Shown: positions 1 through 35,568 of the stretch, in pieces
Layout: each line of letters starts with the position of its first letter
How positions within the stretch are numbered: position 1 is the stretch's first letter
Virus record (IMG/VR): IMGVR_UViG_3300048892_000070
Location: 1 to 35,569 of that record
Reading direction: 5' to 3' (one strand)
Length of the DNA stretch: 35,569 nucleotides
Source of the DNA: a virus
Taxonomy: Duplodnaviria; Caudoviricetes
The notes under the pieces: model-generated
The model's input: the letters and a program-made list of their open reading frames with translations, nothing else
The model's database searches: none
What the model was told of the DNA's origin: nothing
Program-made: the position numbers and the translations under genes

Positions 1-1
1 C

Positions 2-562
2 TTCCGGGGCGTGATGATGGGCGAGGAGCCTACGGTCGAGTGTCAGGCCGGCTCGGCGATGCCCCGCTCCGACGCTGCCAAGCAGGCGGCGATCCTGGAG
101 ATCCTCCAGACCATGTTCCAGTACGGCATGGCTCCGAATCAGCGCGACCTACGCAAGGTCTTCAAGGACTACCAGGTCGGCGCTCTGGATCAATTGTTCT
201 CGGGCCTCTCCACGACTGAGCAGCAGATCCAGCGCGAGAACCGGAATATGGCCCTCGGAGAAGCGGTGGACATCAACGCCTTCGATGAAGACCAGGATCA
301 CATCGACGGCCACGAGGAATTCCAGCGCTCCGCACGCTACCTGCAACTCGAACCGCAGATCAAGCAGTTGGTCGAACTTCACGTCAACGCCCACCGCGAA
401 CGGATCAAACAGCAGGTGGACATGCAGGTCCAAGCGCAGGCCGCAGCCCAGCAGGGCCAGATGGGAGCCGAACATCAGATGACGCTCGAACAGGGCTCAC
501 ACGAAGCGGCGCTGGACGTTGCCAAGCAACACGCCGCCCCGACCCCTCCCGCCCGTGGCTAG
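2..562 (+). CDS. Portal protein, C-terminal part (5' truncated by window)
   Basis: Frame is open from the window start. Gln-rich helical tail with 'AFDEDQDHIDGHEEF...LHVNAH', upstream of scaffold and capsid. Positional inference. Confidence 0.7.
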   Translation, partial: FRGVMMGEEPTVECQAGSAMPRSDAAKQAAILEILQTMFQYGMAPNQRDLRKVFKDYQVGALDQLFSGLSTTEQQIQRENRNMALGEAVDINAFDEDQDHIDGHEEFQRSARYLQLEPQIKQLVELHVNAHRERIKQQVDMQVQAQAAAQQGQMGAEHQMTLEQGSHEAALDVAKQHAAPTPPARG

Positions 563-770
563 CTCGATCAAAGCTGCGATGCAGAAGATGATGAAAGAAA
601 ACGCCGAACGCCCCAACTCCGGTCACCGCCCCCCGAACCTCCATATGACCGAAGACACCCACAAGTCCTGCTCCACCTGCCTGCACTACGACAAGAATTT
701 CTGCGATCTCTACGACTACCGGACCCAGCCCAGCGAAGTATGCGACTCCTGGGCTCCCCTTCCCGAATAG
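555..770 (+). CDS. Small Cys4 protein, HiPIP-like motif (71 aa)
   Basis: GTG at 555 overlaps the portal end. Motif CSTC-x7-C-x12-CDSW. Confidence 0.65.
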   Translation: MASSIKAAMQKMMKENAERPNSGHRPPNLHMTEDTHKSCSTCLHYDKNFCDLYDYRTQPSEVCDSWAPLPE

Positions 771-777
771 GAGAACT

Positions 778-924
778 ATGAGCGCATTCGACAAACTCGC
801 CGGGAAGCTGGCGAAGAAGAAGGGCGTATCGAACCCCCGTGCGCTCGCCGCCTTCATTGGCGACCAGAAATACGGCAAGGCTGGCATGGCAAAGAAAGCC
901 GCCGCTGCGAGGAGAGGCAAGTGA
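778..924 (+). CDS. Small basic protein (48 aa), not in ORF track
   Basis: AGGAG RBS then ATG. MSAFDKLAGKLAKKKGVSNPRALAAFIGDQKYGKAGMAKKAAAARRGK. GTGA overlap with next gene. Confidence 0.75.
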   Translation: MSAFDKLAGKLAKKKGVSNPRALAAFIGDQKYGKAGMAKKAAAARRGK

Positions 925-1262
925 GCAACTCACAGACCATGCGCCTCATGCAGGCGCTTGAGTTCTTCAACTCCCGTACCCGTGGCGCAGAGCTGCCCAA
1001 GGGCGTCCAGGAGGCCGTAGAGGGCCTCCAGAAGGCATTGGGGCAGCCTGCCCCAGGACAGGACACCCCCGGCGCGAGAGCGGCTCTGAAGGTCGCCCCC
1101 GGCACAGACGGGACGGGAGAGAACTACCGCAAGGCAGCGGTCGGAGTGGACGGACCCTCCCCGGGCCAGAAAGAGGCCAACGGCATCTCGGCTGAAATCC
1201 AAAAGGCAGCCGAGGCGATCCTCTCCAAGGGCGGCGAATCGACGCCCACCGAAGCCACCTAA
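921..1262 (+). CDS. Hypothetical head-region protein
   Basis: GGAGAGG upstream, GTGA coupling to previous gene. Confidence 0.7.
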   Translation: MSNSQTMRLMQALEFFNSRTRGAELPKGVQEAVEGLQKALGQPAPGQDTPGARAALKVAPGTDGTGENYRKAAVGVDGPSPGQKEANGISAEIQKAAEAILSKGGESTPTEAT

Positions 1263-1283
1263 GACTTTCCACGTAACACGAAT

Positions 1284-1431
1284 CGACCAAGGACCGCCAC
1301 AGCAGTAGCCAAGGCCCTACGGGTACAGCTACGCCAAGGGCAAGGTCACAGTCGGGAATAGGAGTACCCAATGGCAGGTGACGCCGTACAGCCCGCCGAT
1401 GCAGGCGAGAGCCAAGGCGACGCGACAGCCA
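1284..1431 (+). promoter_or_regulatory. Putative structured cis-regulatory RNA with repeated CAAG/ACA internal loops around scaffold start
   Basis: Hand folding gives a hairpin at 1284-1354 with three CAAG/ACA loops and a hairpin at 1382-1422 with a fourth. Confidence 0.65.
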
Positions 1432-2177
1432 CCGACTCGGGGTTGTATGACCTCGACTCAGTCGCACCCGATGTGCGGGAGCTTCTTGAGCCCCACATCA
1501 AGGCAATCAACGGAAACGTAGAAAAGAAGTTCCGCGAAGCAGCCGACGAACGAAAAGGTTGGCAACCCTACGAGGAGCTTGGGCTGAAGGACATTCAGCC
1601 TGAAGAACTTCAGGGGCTTCTGGAGTTCGCCAAAATGGCGAACGATCCCGAAAAGTTCGGCCAGTGGTGGCAGGACGCTGGGAAAGAAATGGGCCTGTTC
1701 GACAAGTTCAGCGAGCAGGAGAACGACGACCTCGACCTGGAGTCAGTCGAAGATTTCTCGCAAGAGAACATCGAGAAACTGATTGCGGAGAAAGTGGCCG
1801 AGGCCACCTCTCCGATCCAGGAGAAGTTCCAGGCACAAGAGCAAGAACGCCTGGAGCAAGAGGCAAGCCAGGAGATCACTTCTCAGCTCGAGGAGATCCG
1901 GAAAGAGCATCCGGACCTTCCCAAGGGCGCAGAGGATGCGATCGTCAGGCTCGCCTACTCCCACGCGGACGAGGACCCGAACCCAATCCAGAAGGGCTTT
2001 GAGGAATACGAGCAGTTGATCGGCCAGGGCGAGAAGGCCCTGTTCACCGACAAGGCAGAGCAGCCACAGACCCCAGAGGGTCCAGGGGCCGCTTCTACGT
2101 CTCCCGAGAAAGTCACCTCGTTTGGTGACCCCCGCCTCAAGGCGATGGCAGCCGAAAGGCTGAAGAACAGCGCCTGA
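1371..2177 (+). CDS. Capsid scaffolding protein
   Basis: Very acidic, helical, basic C-terminal tip. Directly precedes the capsid gene. AGGAG RBS at 1360-1364. Confidence 0.8.
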   Translation: MAGDAVQPADAGESQGDATATDSGLYDLDSVAPDVRELLEPHIKAINGNVEKKFREAADERKGWQPYEELGLKDIQPEELQGLLEFAKMANDPEKFGQWWQDAGKEMGLFDKFSEQENDDLDLESVEDFSQENIEKLIAEKVAEATSPIQEKFQAQEQERLEQEASQEITSQLEEIRKEHPDLPKGAEDAIVRLAYSHADEDPNPIQKGFEEYEQLIGQGEKALFTDKAEQPQTPEGPGAASTSPEKVTSFGDPRLKAMAAERLKNSA

Positions 2178-2188
2178 TTCACCGCGAC

Positions 2189-2228
2189 TGAGGAAATCCT
2201 TGTCCCTCTGACACCAGGAGTTTCCTCA
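2189..2228 (+). promoter_or_regulatory. Hairpin sequestering the capsid RBS
   Basis: TGAGGAAA-TCCT-TGTC pairs with GACA-cc-AGGA-g-TTTCCTCA. The 3' arm holds AGGAG and the A of ATG. Confidence 0.55.
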
Positions 2229-3472
2229 TGGCAACGCAGACACTCTCTGCTGCCGACGCGATTCTCAAGGACCTGTATGTCGGTCCCGTAGTCGAGCAGC
2301 TCAACCAGAAGACGTACCTGATCGACCAGATCGAGCGCGATTCGCAGTCCATCGACCACACCGGTCGACGGGCCGTGATCCCCGTTCACACCAACCGCAA
2401 CCGTGGCCGTGGCTCACGCGCTGACGGGGGCAACCTGCCCGCCGCCGGCACGCAGTCCTGGCAGGACGCGATTGTCAACATCCGCTACAACTACTCGGCC
2501 ATCGAGGTCACTGATGGCTCGATCAAGGCCTCTCAGTCAAACGAGGGTGCCTTCGTCAACATCCTCGACGCCGAGACGAAGGGCTGCGCGAACGATCTCC
2601 GCAAGGACATCAACCGCCAGGTCTTCGGGACCGGGGACGGCCTCCTCTCGACCGTCGCCAAATCCCAGACGGAAACAACCGTCCTGGAATTGGAATCGGT
2701 CCAGTACGTCGCAGTCGGAGATCCGGTGGATGTCCGCCGCAAGACCGATGGCGTCGCAACCGAAGGCGTCACCTCCGTTTCGATCAAAAAACGGACGGGC
2801 GGCACCACCAAGACCATCGAACTCTCGACCAAAGTGGCCGGGACGGTTGACACCAAATTCGGGGTCTACCTGCAGGAAAGCCGCAACAACGAGATGGACG
2901 GGCTCCGCAACATCATCGAAACGAAACGGACCCTCCACTCGATCAACTCGGAAACCGCCGGTAACGAGTTCTGGAACGGCAACATCCGGGAAGCAGGCTC
3001 CAGCGCGACCTCTACATCGGTCGCAGGCGAGTCTGTGTTCGAGCAGGCCGCCGATGATGTCGGTTTCTCGGGCCAGGGCGAGGTCGAGGTCTTCCTCACC
3101 ACGCGTGGTATCCGCAGAAGGCTGGCGGACACCTACCAGTCCCAGAAGCGCTACAACGATGCCCAGGCCGTCAACGTCCACGGTGGCTACTCGGCCATCC
3201 TGGTCAACGAGGTCCCGGTCATCGCTGATGACGACGCCCCGCGCAACACCGCGTTCGGGCTGAACAAGGAGTCGTTCCGCTGGTTCCAACAGTCCAGTCC
3301 GGGCTGGATGGATCAGGCGGGTGGGGGTGTGTTCCACCTCAAGGACGGTTCCAGCGCTGGAACGAAGGTTGCCACGTGGCAGGCCTTCTTCAGTTGGTAC
3401 TGCGCCCTCGGCTGCGTCGCGCCGAACCGCAACGCCAAGATCATCTACATCACCGACGACAACCCGTCATAG
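2228..3472 (+). CDS. Major capsid protein (HK97-fold expected)
   Basis: 414 aa after scaffold. 'LKDLY.GPV.EQLN', 'DLRKDINRQVFGTGDG' and 'LGCVAPNRNA' are typical of phage major capsids. Followed by a terminator. Confidence 0.88.
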   Translation: MATQTLSAADAILKDLYVGPVVEQLNQKTYLIDQIERDSQSIDHTGRRAVIPVHTNRNRGRGSRADGGNLPAAGTQSWQDAIVNIRYNYSAIEVTDGSIKASQSNEGAFVNILDAETKGCANDLRKDINRQVFGTGDGLLSTVAKSQTETTVLELESVQYVAVGDPVDVRRKTDGVATEGVTSVSIKKRTGGTTKTIELSTKVAGTVDTKFGVYLQESRNNEMDGLRNIIETKRTLHSINSETAGNEFWNGNIREAGSSATSTSVAGESVFEQAADDVGFSGQGEVEVFLTTRGIRRRLADTYQSQKRYNDAQAVNVHGGYSAILVNEVPVIADDDAPRNTAFGLNKESFRWFQQSSPGWMDQAGGGVFHLKDGSSAGTKVATWQAFFSWYCALGCVAPNRNAKIIYITDDNPS

Positions 3473-3480
3473 GTTTGAGG

Positions 3481-3515
3481 GTGGGGCTGCGCCTTCGGGC
3501 GTGGCCCCTACTTTC
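3481..3515 (+). terminator. Intrinsic terminator/attenuator after capsid gene
   Basis: GTGGGGCTGCGCC-TTCG-GGCGTGGCCCCTAC stem with cUUCGg loop and a short T tract. Confidence 0.7.
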
Positions 3516-3528
3516 AAGGAAAGGACGC

Positions 3529-3981
3529 ATGGAGATTCGCCCCGCTTCACTCGCCATGTTCGCCAAGGGCCGCGAGGGCCAGCTGGTCCCCATAGACGAT
3601 GACGTACAGGGTGTGGCGAATGCCCTCAACGAGATTGACCACCACTTCCGCCTGCGCTACTCAGAGGCCGGCGAATACTTTGTCGTGTACTGGAAGGGCG
3701 ACGAGGAACCGGAGGGCGACGGCTACCTCATTACGACCGCTCAAGAACTTGACCACCGCCTCGTCAACCACGTAGGCGAGATTTACAAGCGCTGCCAGGC
3801 ACCGGGCTATTCCTTTGCCGACGAGCTGGAGCGCACCGAGGCCGAGGCCCGCGCACAGAAAGACCATGAGTTCCTTGAGAAGCACGGGGAGATGTACGAA
3901 CAGATGGCCTACGCGATGCGCCACGACCTCGGCTACGACCAACAAAGAGTCTTTATCCCGAAGGAGATAGCGAGTGTCTGA
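3529..3981 (+). CDS. Hypothetical virion-operon protein (150 aa)
   Basis: GAAAGGA RBS before ATG 3529. Overlaps next gene. Confidence 0.75.
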   Translation: MEIRPASLAMFAKGREGQLVPIDDDVQGVANALNEIDHHFRLRYSEAGEYFVVYWKGDEEPEGDGYLITTAQELDHRLVNHVGEIYKRCQAPGYSFADELERTEAEARAQKDHEFLEKHGEMYEQMAYAMRHDLGYDQQRVFIPKEIASV

Positions 3982-4666
3982 AGCTGACCTTGTCATCGCT
4001 GTCCCCTCAAGGGGCAATTGTCGCGTCGAGTGGGCCTCTGCCCTAAAGATGCTTGAGCCGCCCGTGAACTACTCATGGGCGCTCCGCTTCATCACGGGAG
4101 AGGAAGTGGACGACGCGAGGAACGGGAGCGTTCTCGATGCCCGCGAGATGGGTGCCAAATACCTGATGTTCATTGACGACGACACCCTGATTCCCAACCA
4201 GGGCCTGCGGCGCATGGTTTACCTGATGGAGAACCACCCCGAGTGGGACCTTCTCTCGGGGGTCTACGTGACCAAGACCGACCCTCCCCAGACCCTTGTG
4301 TTCCGAGAGGGCAACCCCGGCCCCTCCTGGGACTGGAAGTTCAACGAGCAGTTCCCGATCACGGGCTGCGGGATGGGCTGCTGTCTAATCCGCATGAGTG
4401 CCTTCGAAAAGGTGGAGGAGCCGTGGTTCAAGTTCGTCCGCCAATCGGAAGGCAAGAATCACTCGGAGGAGGGCGAGGACCTGTACTTCTGCCGCAAGCT
4501 CGAAGAGGCCGGCGGGACGATGATGGCTGACGGGGGACTGCTCTGCGGCCACATCAACAAACAGGGCGCGATCTTCTCGATCCCCGCCGACTCCCTGCCG
4601 ATCCGTAACGGCGACATGAAGGGCCACACGATCATCGACGCCACCGAGACCCTGAGCGCCGCATGA
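3974..4666 (+). CDS. Glycosyltransferase, GT-A fold (family 2-like)
   Basis: N-terminal VIAVPSRG strand, YLMFIDDD (DxD), GCGMGCCLI and GEDLYFC motifs. Confidence 0.85.
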   Translation: MSEADLVIAVPSRGNCRVEWASALKMLEPPVNYSWALRFITGEEVDDARNGSVLDAREMGAKYLMFIDDDTLIPNQGLRRMVYLMENHPEWDLLSGVYVTKTDPPQTLVFREGNPGPSWDWKFNEQFPITGCGMGCCLIRMSAFEKVEEPWFKFVRQSEGKNHSEEGEDLYFCRKLEEAGGTMMADGGLLCGHINKQGAIFSIPADSLPIRNGDMKGHTIIDATETLSAA

Positions 4667-34116: not shown

Positions 34117-34394
34117 GCGACCCGATTCTCTCAATCGAGGAGGCAGCCGGCATCGTGAAGCTCTCCGAGCGCCAGCTATACCGGGTAGCCCGTGAAGGCG
34201 GTGGTCCCTTCCGCAAGCTCGAGGGACGTTGGCGCTGCTACGAATCCGAGCTCCACGCCTGGGTCCGCTCTCATGCACCCAGAAAGCGCGATCCGATCTC
34301 CCGCGACCCGATGGCTCCCCGAACGCCTCCCCGATCTCGCGGTAGCTTGCGCTCGAAAGTAATCGAGCTAGATGCAAGGAGGAGAGCGGCGTGA
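34113..34394 (+). CDS. xis: Excisionase-like HTH protein
   Basis: 'LSIEEAAGIVKLSERQLYRVAREG..PFRKLEGRWR'. Coupled to integrase. Confidence 0.8.
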   Translation: MSDPILSIEEAAGIVKLSERQLYRVAREGGGPFRKLEGRWRCYESELHAWVRSHAPRKRDPISRDPMAPRTPPRSRGSLRSKVIELDARRRAA

Positions 34395-35464
34395 GCGTCC
34401 ATCCAACGAGGACAGGCAAGTGGGAAGTGCGCTACCGGGAGGGAACGCGCAACCGGAGCAAGACCTTCGACCGCAAGAGCGATGCGGGCAGCTTCGACAT
34501 CAGACAGAAGGAGAAGCGCCAGCGCGGCGAGCAGATCATCAGGCCCCGCGACACGCCAACGCTCGAGGCTCTCGCGGGTCGGCTGACCGAGAAGCGAGCG
34601 GCGGACGGGATCGCCACGAATACGCTCCTGTTCAACGGCAGCGTCTTCGACAAGCACATCTCGCCCTATCTCGGCCACCTGCGAGTCGCTGAAATCTCCC
34701 CCGAGCGCCTTGACGAGTGGCAGGCCGAGTGCCCTGCGTCCGCCTACATGATGAATCGGGCGATGGAGTACCTGGGCCAGCTCCTCGCCTATGCCAAGCA
34801 GCTTCGATACGTGGAGACCAACCACGCGGCAGACCTCAAACGTCGCCCCCACCGGACCCGCAAGGGAAAGACCGCCTCACCCGCTCAGGTCGAGGCGATG
34901 CGGGACTACTTCCTGAGCAAGAAACGGCTGGGCTACGCGACCCTGATCTCAGTCTCGGCCTACGTGGGCATCAGGCCCGACGAAACCCTGCAACTGCGGT
35001 GGGACTCGCTCAATGGCCGGCGGTTCTTCATCGAGGCCGAGATGAGCAAGACCGAGAAAGCTCGCTATCCCGAGATCCCCGATCCTGTTCTTGCAGACCT
35101 CGCCCAATGGCGGCTTGCCCAGGGAAGTCCCGAGGGCCTGATCTTCCCGCGTTCGGATGGGGTGCCCTGGCGTAAGACGGACCGAGACAACTGGCGAGCC
35201 CGGTGGTTTCGTCCCGCTGAAGAGGCGGCGGGGCTTGAGGGCTTCCGCCCCTACGACCTTCGCCATACCTGCGCGTCACTAATGCTCAGGGCGCAGATTC
35301 CACCGGCAGACGTAGCCGAGCACATGGGCCACGGCTTACGAGTCTTGTTCGACACCTATGGCCACGAGATCGAGGGAATGCGCGGAATGCCTGCGGTCCC
35401 GATGGCCCAAGCAATTCAGGAAGCGCGTGGTTTGGATGTTCGGAGAAAGTTCGGAGCGGCCTGA
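34391..35464 (+). CDS. int: Tyrosine integrase
   Basis: Arm-binding N-terminus 'WEVRYR...SKTF', GIRPDE, YDLRH, MGH and catalytic Tyr in DTYGH. Confidence 0.95.
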   Translation: MSVHPTRTGKWEVRYREGTRNRSKTFDRKSDAGSFDIRQKEKRQRGEQIIRPRDTPTLEALAGRLTEKRAADGIATNTLLFNGSVFDKHISPYLGHLRVAEISPERLDEWQAECPASAYMMNRAMEYLGQLLAYAKQLRYVETNHAADLKRRPHRTRKGKTASPAQVEAMRDYFLSKKRLGYATLISVSAYVGIRPDETLQLRWDSLNGRRFFIEAEMSKTEKARYPEIPDPVLADLAQWRLAQGSPEGLIFPRSDGVPWRKTDRDNWRARWFRPAEEAAGLEGFRPYDLRHTCASLMLRAQIPPADVAEHMGHGLRVLFDTYGHEIEGMRGMPAVPMAQAIQEARGLDVRRKFGAA

Positions 35465-35496
35465 CAATGAGCGCTCGTAAAGACGTTCGTTTCCAA

Positions 35497-35568
35497 TGGG
35501 CGCGCGGAGAGTCGAACTCCGGACCTCTCGCGTGTGAAGCGAGCGCTCTCCCACTGAGCTACGCGCCC
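35497..35568 (-). tRNA. tRNA-Val (anticodon CAC), probable attachment site
   Basis: GGGCGCG acceptor stem, TAGCTCAGTGGGAGAGC D-arm, CTCGC-TTCACAC-GCGAG anticodon arm, GTTCGA T-loop. CCA not encoded. Confidence 0.97.

What the first reader, a model, noticed from the sequence alone, without database searches (positions are those of the whole stretch)
1284..1431. RNA with four identical CAAG/ACA internal loops bracketing the scaffold start codon
Seen: 1284-1354 folds by hand into one long hairpin, cgac CAAG gacc gcc ACA gc a guagc CAAG gccc uac gggu ACA gcuac gc CAAG ggc aa gguc ACA gucg. It has three 4x3 CAAG/ACA loops (the middle one inverted) separated by stems of different sequence, and ends 5 nt before the AGGAG RBS. 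A fourth loop forms inside the first codons (ACA 1388-1390 opposite CAAG 1413-1416). That hairpin can extend to 1372/1431, covering part of the AUG. Constant loops with varying stems argue for selection on RNA structure. Inference: a multivalent protein-binding operator that controls scaffold or capsid translation. P22 scaffolding protein is known to autoregulate post-transcriptionally. I do not recognise this motif from any described family.
Basis: partly seen in the sequence, partly recalled or inferred. Interest (0 to 1): 0.85.

Follow-up and report, generated by a model that had tools for sequence, protein, structure and literature searches.

The report
Phage scaffold's own mRNA operator
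A family of soil podophages keeps two to four copies of one small RNA loop on both sides of the start of its likely scaffolding-protein gene, and one loop letter changes in step with one amino acid of that protein, so the protein likely binds its own message to limit its own synthesis.

Summary
Real and conserved. The loop C-CARG-G/Y-ACA-G (R = A or G) lies at the scaffold start in 58 of 62 non-redundant relatives, against 122 of 1996 control windows. Stems covary, and the coding copy fixes a wobble base (46 of 51; background 13%). The copies bracket the ribosome footprint (medians -16 and +13). New here: all copies in a genome switch A/G together (44 of 51), and scaffold residue 47 tracks the switch. 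G loci carry D/E in 25 of 25; non-acidic residues occur only in A loci (16 of 16). Residue 47 is the sole top column in 200 of 200 sets of nine independent pairs, family-wise p about 0.008; coat and portal show nothing. Best reading: a multivalent operator bound by unassembled scaffold to repress its translation, as known functionally for P22, whose gene lacks this loop. No Rfam family; only a sub-threshold match to the seven-nucleotide bubble of coronavirus s2m. The AUG-covering extension is not supported. Cultured phages Adat, Jasmine and Shocker carry the loop, so it can be tested. Binding and repression are untested.

The parts
1284..1354 (+). Leader hairpin with three CAAG/ACA 4x3 internal loops, the middle one inverted
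   Evidence: RNAfold MFE and centroid, z -3.3; closing pairs 0.82-1.0; conserved and covarying in relatives; CM score 66.4 bits, but this sequence helped build the model
1288..1350 (+). Outer loop: CAAG 1288-1291 opposite ACA 1348-1350; R base at 1290
   Evidence: 5+4 flanking pairs; the last leader ACA lies at -16 to -28 from the AUG in 44 of 56 loci with a leader loop
1299..1338 (+). Inverted middle loop: ACA 1299-1301 opposite CAAG 1335-1338
   Evidence: closing pairs 0.82 and 0.99; three leader loops in 6 of 62 loci
1310..1327 (+). Inner loop: CAAG 1310-1313 opposite ACA 1325-1327; the part that matches the basal bubble of s2m
   Evidence: 5+4 pairs; RF00164 21.1 bits against gathering score 50, E 0.027
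1360..1373 (+). Shine-Dalgarno AGGAG (1360-1364) and AUG (1371-1373), lying between the leader and coding hairpins
   Evidence: sequence; leader element ends at median -16 and coding hairpin starts at median +13 across relatives
1382..1422 (+). Coding hairpin with an inverted loop, ACA 1388-1390 opposite CAAG 1413-1416; it dictates the V-Q-P and Q-G codons
   Evidence: 45 of 62 loci; wobble A before Gln in 46 of 51 against 83 of 628; weak in this phage's own fold
1371..2177 (+). 268-aa acidic, all-helical protein between portal and major capsid genes; likely scaffolding protein
   Evidence: no Pfam or PHROG hit; AlphaFold2 all-helical, pLDDT 82, pTM 0.42; Foldseek match to the gene before the capsid gene of phage Shocker, E 4e-5; portal upstream in relatives
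1509..1511 (+). Codon 47 (Asn here) in predicted helix 33-69; the residue that tracks the loop's A/G type
2228..3472 (+). Major capsid protein; in five relatives the same loops also, or instead, lie in an enlarged gap before this gene
   Evidence: phrog_14242, E 8.6e-65; L003, L004, L015, L141, L149

Best explanation
This is a conserved RNA structure of two to four identical CARG/ACA internal loops placed on both sides of the ribosome-binding site of the likely scaffolding-protein gene, and it likely works as an operator that unassembled scaffold binds through its N-terminal helix to repress its own translation. Shown: the loops, their covarying stems, their position just outside the Shine-Dalgarno-to-+12 window, the codon constraint of the coding copy, the concerted A/G switch, and the tracking of that switch by scaffold residue 47 (acid with G; Asn, Gln, Ser or Ala only with A). 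Inferred, by analogy with the s2m crystal structure: C pairs with A, G pairs with C, one A forms a platform-like triple, and the two middle purines (A, R) are pushed out of the helix as a recognition surface. Inferred: helix 33-69 (conserved K44, D/E47, T51, K/R52-53, Q55) reads the extruded R, a carboxylate suiting G and amide or hydroxyl residues suiting A. Inferred: scaffold oligomers fill several loops cooperatively and clamp both sides of the 30S footprint. Inferred: scaffold drawn into procapsids by coat protein leaves the mRNA, so synthesis follows the free pool. In a minority of phages the same loops before the capsid gene would let scaffold also tune coat synthesis.
For: 58 of 62 leaders against 122 of 1996 control windows; CAAG 98, CAGG 97, every other CNNG word at most 9. 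114 and 35 loops in the two bins flanking the AUG, 0-3 in all other bins, 24 on the minus strand in 479 kb. Third stem pairs 137 of 149 and 120 of 149 against 79 and 67 expected; 7 of 11 pairs show two-sided changes, 90.6% of cells pair against 16-38% when slid. Wobble A 46 of 51 against 13%. One type per locus in 44 of 51 against a shuffled mean of 16.1, maximum 30, with 9 changes on the tree and sister switches such as this window (AAAA) against L002 (GGGG), whose capsids differ at 6 residues. Residue 47: G loci D/E 25 of 25, non-acidic only in A loci 16 of 16, mixed loci D/E 7 of 7; sole top column in 200 of 200 random sets of 9 independent pairs, net 8-9 of 9, family-wise p median 0.008; best capsid column 4-6 and best portal column 4-7 of 9. 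Ten new G-containing loci all have D. Copies before the capsid gene match the locus type or residue 47 in 5 of 5, including A-type L003 about 900 nt from its leader. The N-terminus of P22 scaffold is implicated in translational autoregulation (bioRxiv 10.1101/2022.12.13.520362, passage).
Against: No binding, probing or reporter data. Residue 47 was found after the fact; the new loci test only the G-to-acid direction, which is also the common state (117 of 151 hits among representative proteins), and no new non-acidic case turned up. Seven A-type loci of one clade, plus new locus L132, have D47, so the code is not one-to-one. Codon 47 lies 140 nt from the leader, and close relatives differ from the window in a block over leader and N-domain (X4 diverges at 1471-1565), so linkage contributes. 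The conserved stems leave the Shine-Dalgarno and AUG outside, so the sign of the effect is not given by the structure. The scaffold identity rests on gene order and fold type, not on homology. Four of 62 leaders lack the loop; L081 lacks it anywhere near either gene yet keeps D47. In SARS-CoV-2 s2m the corresponding loop is a dynamic 10-nt loop by NMR (PMC11182009, passages), so the bubble geometry depends on context. P22 itself has no such loop.
Confidence: 0.66

Rival explanations
1. Scaffold does bind the loops, but the outcome is not repression: it activates initiation, or gathers scaffold on the polycistronic portal-scaffold-coat message to nucleate procapsids where the parts are made.
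For: The stems do not cover the Shine-Dalgarno or AUG in a conserved way. Copies before the capsid gene lie 50-112 nt upstream of its start, farther than needed to block a ribosome. A portal/mRNA interaction has been suggested for P22, with little evidence (PMC5529062, passage).
Against: The tight bracketing of one start site (medians -16 and +13) and a copy forced into the first codons fit initiation control; the P22 precedent is autoregulation.
Confidence: 0.15
2. Another protein (coat, portal, a small upstream protein or a host factor such as the SRP protein Ffh or a ribosomal protein) binds the loops, and residue 47 only hitch-hikes in a recombining leader-plus-N-domain module.
For: Block-wise divergence of leader and N-domain in close relatives. 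The s2m paper notes a superficial resemblance to SRP RNA domain IV (PMC539059, passage). The small upstream ORFs were not tested for covariation.
Against: No neighbouring scaffold column tracks the type as well (next best 6 of 9 in the hand-picked pairs), and no capsid or portal column does. A host factor would not explain genome-wide concerted A/G switches between sister phages. L003's distant copies share its type. Model hits in 61 host-family genomes were five weak ones lying within long open frames.
Confidence: 0.11
3. A protein-independent RNA module: the loops dock on each other or on rRNA, or guide RNase processing or stabilisation of the late transcript.
For: In s2m the extruded purines make a tertiary RNA contact. 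Repeated flanks allow cross-pairing between leader and coding copies.
Against: This does not explain the covariation with residue 47; the best nucleotide column is the first base of that codon, with A, C, U or G in A-type loci and so no pairing pattern. Copy number, spacing and orientation vary freely.
Confidence: 0.06
4. DNA-level repeated operator half-sites, with the hairpins a by-product.
For: Short repeated words around a gene start.
Against: Two-sided stem changes; the upper closing pair is G-U in 93 of 149 loops, which pairs only on the sense strand; variable spacing; no promoter-like site in 1-4000 (a weak test for these hosts).
Confidence: 0.02

Closest known systems
Phage P22 scaffolding protein (gene 8) translational autoregulation
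   Same: [quoted passage not shown]
   Different: No detectable homology to P22 gp8 (no Pfam hit; PF09306 only as a sub-threshold Atlas lead at 0.88). No CRRG/ACA loop around the P22 gene 8 or gene 5 starts and no model hit in its genome. Here the RNA site is a defined, repeated, covarying module with a candidate specificity residue.
Coronavirus/astrovirus s2m (Rfam RF00164), seven-nucleotide asymmetric bubble
   Same: Same 4x3 loop form: C10 G11 A12 G13 opposite A38 C39 A40, with a purine substitution at 11 and substitutions at 12 tolerated (PMC539059, passages); flanking stems align too.
   Different: 21.1 bits against gathering 50; the upper 18 model positions (purine bulge, quartet, pentaloop) are replaced by 5 nt. 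Multi-copy at a DNA-phage start codon rather than at the 3' end of an RNA-virus genome; position 2 is always A. Shared module, most simply by convergence; not a member.
Autogenous translational operators with repeated sub-sites, e.g. E. coli thrS operator bound by ThrRS; MS2 coat operator (recalled)
   Same: An mRNA structure at the start codon bound by the gene's own product (PMC6542539, passage; symmetrical operator-repressor interaction seen as a reference title only).
   Different: No sequence relation; sub-sites lie on both sides of the ribosome footprint, one in the coding region; the proposed binder is an acidic helical assembly chaperone with no known RNA-binding fold.
SRP RNA domain IV symmetric loop (recalled; resemblance of s2m noted in PMC539059)
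   Same: Similar letters on both strands of an internal loop.
   Different: SRP's loop is 4x4 (recalled) and the paper calls the structural details completely different; no SRP Rfam hit.

Membership tests
s2m (RF00164) | Reaches the Rfam gathering score of 50 bits | tested here: not met
   21.1 bits, E 0.027 in a 301-nt search; no hit in relatives
s2m (RF00164) | Seven-nucleotide bubble C-R-x-G opposite A-C-A between two stems | tested here: met
   sequence and secondary-structure level only; 3D geometry not tested
s2m (RF00164) | Three-purine bulge, G-C quartet and GNRA-like pentaloop above the bubble | tested here: not met
   18 model positions replaced by 5 nt; upper stems and loops vary freely
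s2m (RF00164) | Lies near the 3' end of a positive-strand RNA virus genome | tested here: not met
   start of a head gene in a tailed DNA phage with an integrase
P22-type scaffold autoregulation | Target is a scaffold gene between portal and coat | tested here: met
   gene order and helical acidic product; function inferred, not shown
P22-type scaffold autoregulation | Homology to P22 gp8, or the same RNA element in P22 gene 8 | tested here: not met
P22-type scaffold autoregulation | Unassembled scaffold lowers its own synthesis after transcription | not testable with these tools
   needs a reporter or infection assay
Autogenous translational operator (thrS-like kind) | Conserved RNA structure at the translation start | tested here: met
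Autogenous translational operator (thrS-like kind) | Bound by the gene's own product | tested here: inconclusive
   covariation with residue 47 is indirect; 8 A-type loci with D47
Any Rfam 15 family | Gathering-score match | tested here: not met
   window and 15 related loci at gathering; window 1200-1500 and 11 more loci by E-value
SRP RNA domain IV | 4x4 symmetric loop in an SRP RNA helix (recalled) | tested here: not met
   loop is 4x3 in 149 of 149 by the descriptor used; no SRP hit

The most novel reading that the evidence does not exclude
A new RNA family and a new RNA-binding module: capsid scaffolding proteins of a large actinobacterial podophage group read an s2m-bubble-like loop through one helix, with a one-residue, one-base specificity switch (acid 47 with G; Asn/Gln/Ser with A) that has flipped at least nine times and would insulate assembly control between related co-infecting phages. 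It would be the first defined operator for scaffold autoregulation, and a natural protein ligand for the loop type found in coronavirus s2m.
Probability: 0.5. Interest if true: 0.88.

Novelty: new variant of a known kind. Interest (0 to 1): 0.8.

Why it matters
Scaffold autoregulation has been known in P22 since 1985, but I found no paper in the held library that defines an RNA operator or a binding surface for it (searches; the 1985 papers were not readable). This element supplies a structured, multi-copy site, a candidate binding helix and a natural specificity swap that gives a clean experiment, in phages that are in culture (Arthrobacter phages Adat and Jasmine, Microbacterium phage Shocker). 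If right, it shows how a phage matches scaffold supply to capsid assembly, adds an RNA-binding role to an acidic helical chaperone, offers two near-orthogonal repressor-operator pairs for synthetic biology, and shows the s2m bubble as a recurrent RNA module with a protein partner.

Tried and rejected
RNAalifold on the 35-leader MAFFT alignment gave a weak, wrong four-pair consensus driven by the repeated words; pairs were then counted on a named structure. My first structure string was misregistered for the inner loop (discarded) and corrected; the window's own row is shifted one column there. Three pattern scans of IMG/VR looked for the motif in other phage groups; 13 of 39 hits were scaffold leaders of this family; 24 of 120 had a scaffold hit; 14 of 120 had a scaffold hit and 2 more were truncated members, with no nested loops elsewhere. 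No loop near the scaffold or capsid starts of P22, SU10, BUCT555, ctEqG8, ctKpZ937 or ctLwi270; the DS1 hit is off-consensus and probably chance. Host-genome model hits (5 of 61 genomes, 23-28 bits) lie within long open frames and look like chance; the scaffold profile hit only the known prophage among 401 genomes. The AUG-covering extension was rejected. The loop at window 2066/2083 is probably chance. No RNA holder was listed among sequencing runs. The complex predictor was not available, so scaffold dimerisation has no verdict. No solved relative of the scaffold. GC content does not explain the A/G type. The hand-picked pair test was chosen after seeing residue 47 and was replaced by the automated test. 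The alignment files of Fremin et al. 2023 (PMC10690425) could not be searched; four readable files had no hit, so a prior computational prediction among its over ten thousand candidates is not excluded. The scan's earlier findings returned nothing.

Full report
Setting. The window is a 35.6-kb virus record with podovirus-type head genes, an integrase and a terminal tRNA. The finding lies at the start of a 268-aa acidic ORF (1371-2177) between the portal end and the major capsid gene (2228-3472, phrog_14242). The ORF has no Pfam or PHROG match, is predicted all-helical (pLDDT 82, pTM 0.42) and matches the equivalent gene of phage Shocker by fold (E 4e-5). I call it a likely scaffold from gene order and fold type. 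Relatives are prophages in Paraconexibacter antarcticus and a Solirubrobacteraceae MAG; others lie in an Actinomycetota, a Terriglobia and a Verrucomicrobia bin. Cultured relatives at 27% capsid identity are the Arthrobacter phages Adat, Jasmine and kin, and Microbacterium phage Shocker.

The observation. Two of them are the only well-flanked CAAG/ACA loops in the window. The fourth, coding loop is weak in this phage's own ensemble (upper closing pair 0.03). The extension over the AUG depends on the stretch folded and is at chance level in relatives (17 of 44 against 10-18).

Conservation. Of 153 loci then held, 114 had a complete scaffold ORF with a leader, and 62 remained below 90% leader similarity, the window included. 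The start codon was chosen by length and Shine-Dalgarno score, not by the motif. 58 of 62 have at least one CARG/ACA loop, against 122 of 1996 control windows from the same loci; one of the 58 (DS1) is probably chance. With the two middle letters left free, CAAG (98) and CAGG (97) dominate and no other word exceeds 9, while controls are flat. Loops pile up in the two 100-nt bins flanking the AUG (114 and 35) with 0-3 elsewhere. The best compatible set gives 149 loops: 1, 2 or 3 in the leader (15, 35 and 6 loci; none in 6) and a coding copy in 45. The consensus is C-CARG-G opposite Y-ACA-G. The third stem pairs, which the descriptor does not require, hold in 137 and 120 of 149 against 79 and 67 expected. 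On 35 two-loop leaders, selected by structure and so leaning towards it, 7 of 11 pairs show two-sided changes and slid controls fall from 90.6% to 16-38%. Defined from the protein alone, the codon before the early Gln ends in A in 46 of 51 (Val, Ala, Leu, Thr, Gly) against 83 of 628 elsewhere, so the coding copy is selected as RNA. Adat, Jasmine and Shocker have one loop at -40/-21.

Anatomy. The leader element ends at a median of -16 and the coding hairpin starts at a median of +13. The two bracket the stretch that an initiating 30S subunit covers (established knowledge) without pairing it. In five loci the loops also (L003, L004, L149) or instead (L015, L141) lie in an enlarged gap of 116-474 nt before the capsid gene; the model finds L003's second copy at E 1.2e-6. 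L081 and ctLwi270 have none near either start.

Which protein. Copies within a locus share R in 44 of 51 multi-loop loci (shuffled mean 16.1, maximum 30). The type changes 9 times among 43 pure multi-loop loci on a quick maximum-likelihood tree of 58 scaffolds (the careful search did not finish). Sisters switch all copies at once: the window is AAAA and L002 is GGGG, with 6 capsid differences. Scanning all 268 scaffold columns, residue 47 in helix 33-69 stands out. Among 48 pure loci, G loci have D or E in 25 of 25. A loci have S 8, Q 4, N 3, A 1 and D 7, the seven D in one clade. All 7 mixed loci have D or E. In 200 random sets of 9 phylogenetically independent A/G pairs, column 47 was the sole best in all 200 (net 8-9 of 9), with a family-wise p of 0.004-0.016 from all label flips. 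Capsid columns reached 4-6 and portal C-terminal columns 4-7. Of 16 further loci printed, I dropped 5 as copies of discovery loci; the other 11 are 10 G-containing loci, all D, and one A locus with D. That agrees but tests only one direction. Assembled contigs of three other runs read G at 1290, and one continues to E47, but resembles L002. The capsid-proximal copies match their locus (A in L003 with Q47; G in four loci with D47), which local linkage alone would not give. An acid reading guanine and an amide or hydroxyl reading adenine is ordinary base-recognition chemistry (established knowledge); that this contact occurs here is inference.

Comparison. No Rfam family reaches gathering score in the window or 15 relatives. 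The only weak hit is s2m over the inner loop (21.1 of 50 bits). In the SARS s2m crystal structure the seven-nucleotide bubble has a C10-A40 pair, a G13-C39 pair, an A38 platform-like triple, and G11 and A12 rotated out, with a purine change at 11 and changes at 12 tolerated (PMC539059; abstract and passages). The phage loop fits that form but lacks the rest of s2m, so it is not a member; SARS-CoV-2 s2m shows that the geometry depends on context (PMC11182009, passages). A survey of s2m lists it in four virus families, and its passages on bacteriophages do not report it there (PMC3653767, passages). P22 scaffold autoregulation is the functional precedent (preprint passage; the 1985 papers seen as titles only; one was asked for and not held), but P22 and SU10 lack the loop. 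Ten literature searches and term searches in two motif-discovery papers (PMC5737381; PMC10690425) showed no description of this element. The alignment supplements of the latter could not be read, and most subscription papers are not held.

Verdict. The RNA element is real, conserved and apparently undescribed, and within the scans run it is confined to this phage group. The most likely mechanism is cooperative binding of free scaffold to loops on both sides of its own start site, repressing translation until assembly removes it (0.66). Scaffold binding with another outcome (0.15), another binder (0.11), a protein-free RNA role (0.06) and DNA repeats (0.02) remain. It is a new variant of a known kind of control, with an unusually direct test: swap residue 47 and the loop purine.

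Noticed in passing
window 2178-2230; L002, L006, L008, L009, L012: The short gap between scaffold and capsid genes is conserved in sequence in this clade and folds into hairpins, in several cases pairing the capsid Shine-Dalgarno; possibly translational coupling of coat to scaffold.
   Followed up: partly
window 2061-2089: A fifth CARG/ACA loop (2066/2083) in the scaffold's C-terminal coding region, also in L002 and L012, but G-type in an A-type phage and absent from L006, L008 and L009 with similar peptides; probably chance.
   Followed up: yes
L015 4773-5001; L141 2310-2785: Sister phages that lost the element at the scaffold start carry it before the capsid gene instead.
   Followed up: partly
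L305, upstream of the scaffold start: The whole leader element is tandemly duplicated.
   Followed up: no
L022 4308-4492: Group I intron hit just after the scaffold gene, at the capsid gene start (RF00028, 70.6 bits); capsid matches in L035 and L073/L125 also span extra DNA.
   Followed up: no
L024, L068, L079, L127, L145, L151 scaffold N-termini: N-terminal extensions of 30-50 aa lie between the Q-P and Q-G peptides; in L079, L127 and L145 the two loop strands still pair across 90-110 nt.
   Followed up: partly
L017, L018, L020, L022, L073, L131 upstream of the leader: One or two extra stable hairpins precede the element in this clade; possibly a processing or stabilising 5' structure.
   Followed up: no
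window 3974-4666: A glycosyltransferase family 2-like gene sits between the capsid region and the adaptor gene (weak Pfam hits below cut-off).
   Followed up: no
window 34391-35568: Integrase followed by a tRNA gene on the minus strand at the record's end, consistent with a prophage attachment site.
   Followed up: no
L025-L027 (Adat, Jasmine, Shocker): The 'hypothetical protein' before the major capsid gene (phrog_33339) aligns with this scaffold family and can be annotated as a likely scaffold.
   Followed up: partly
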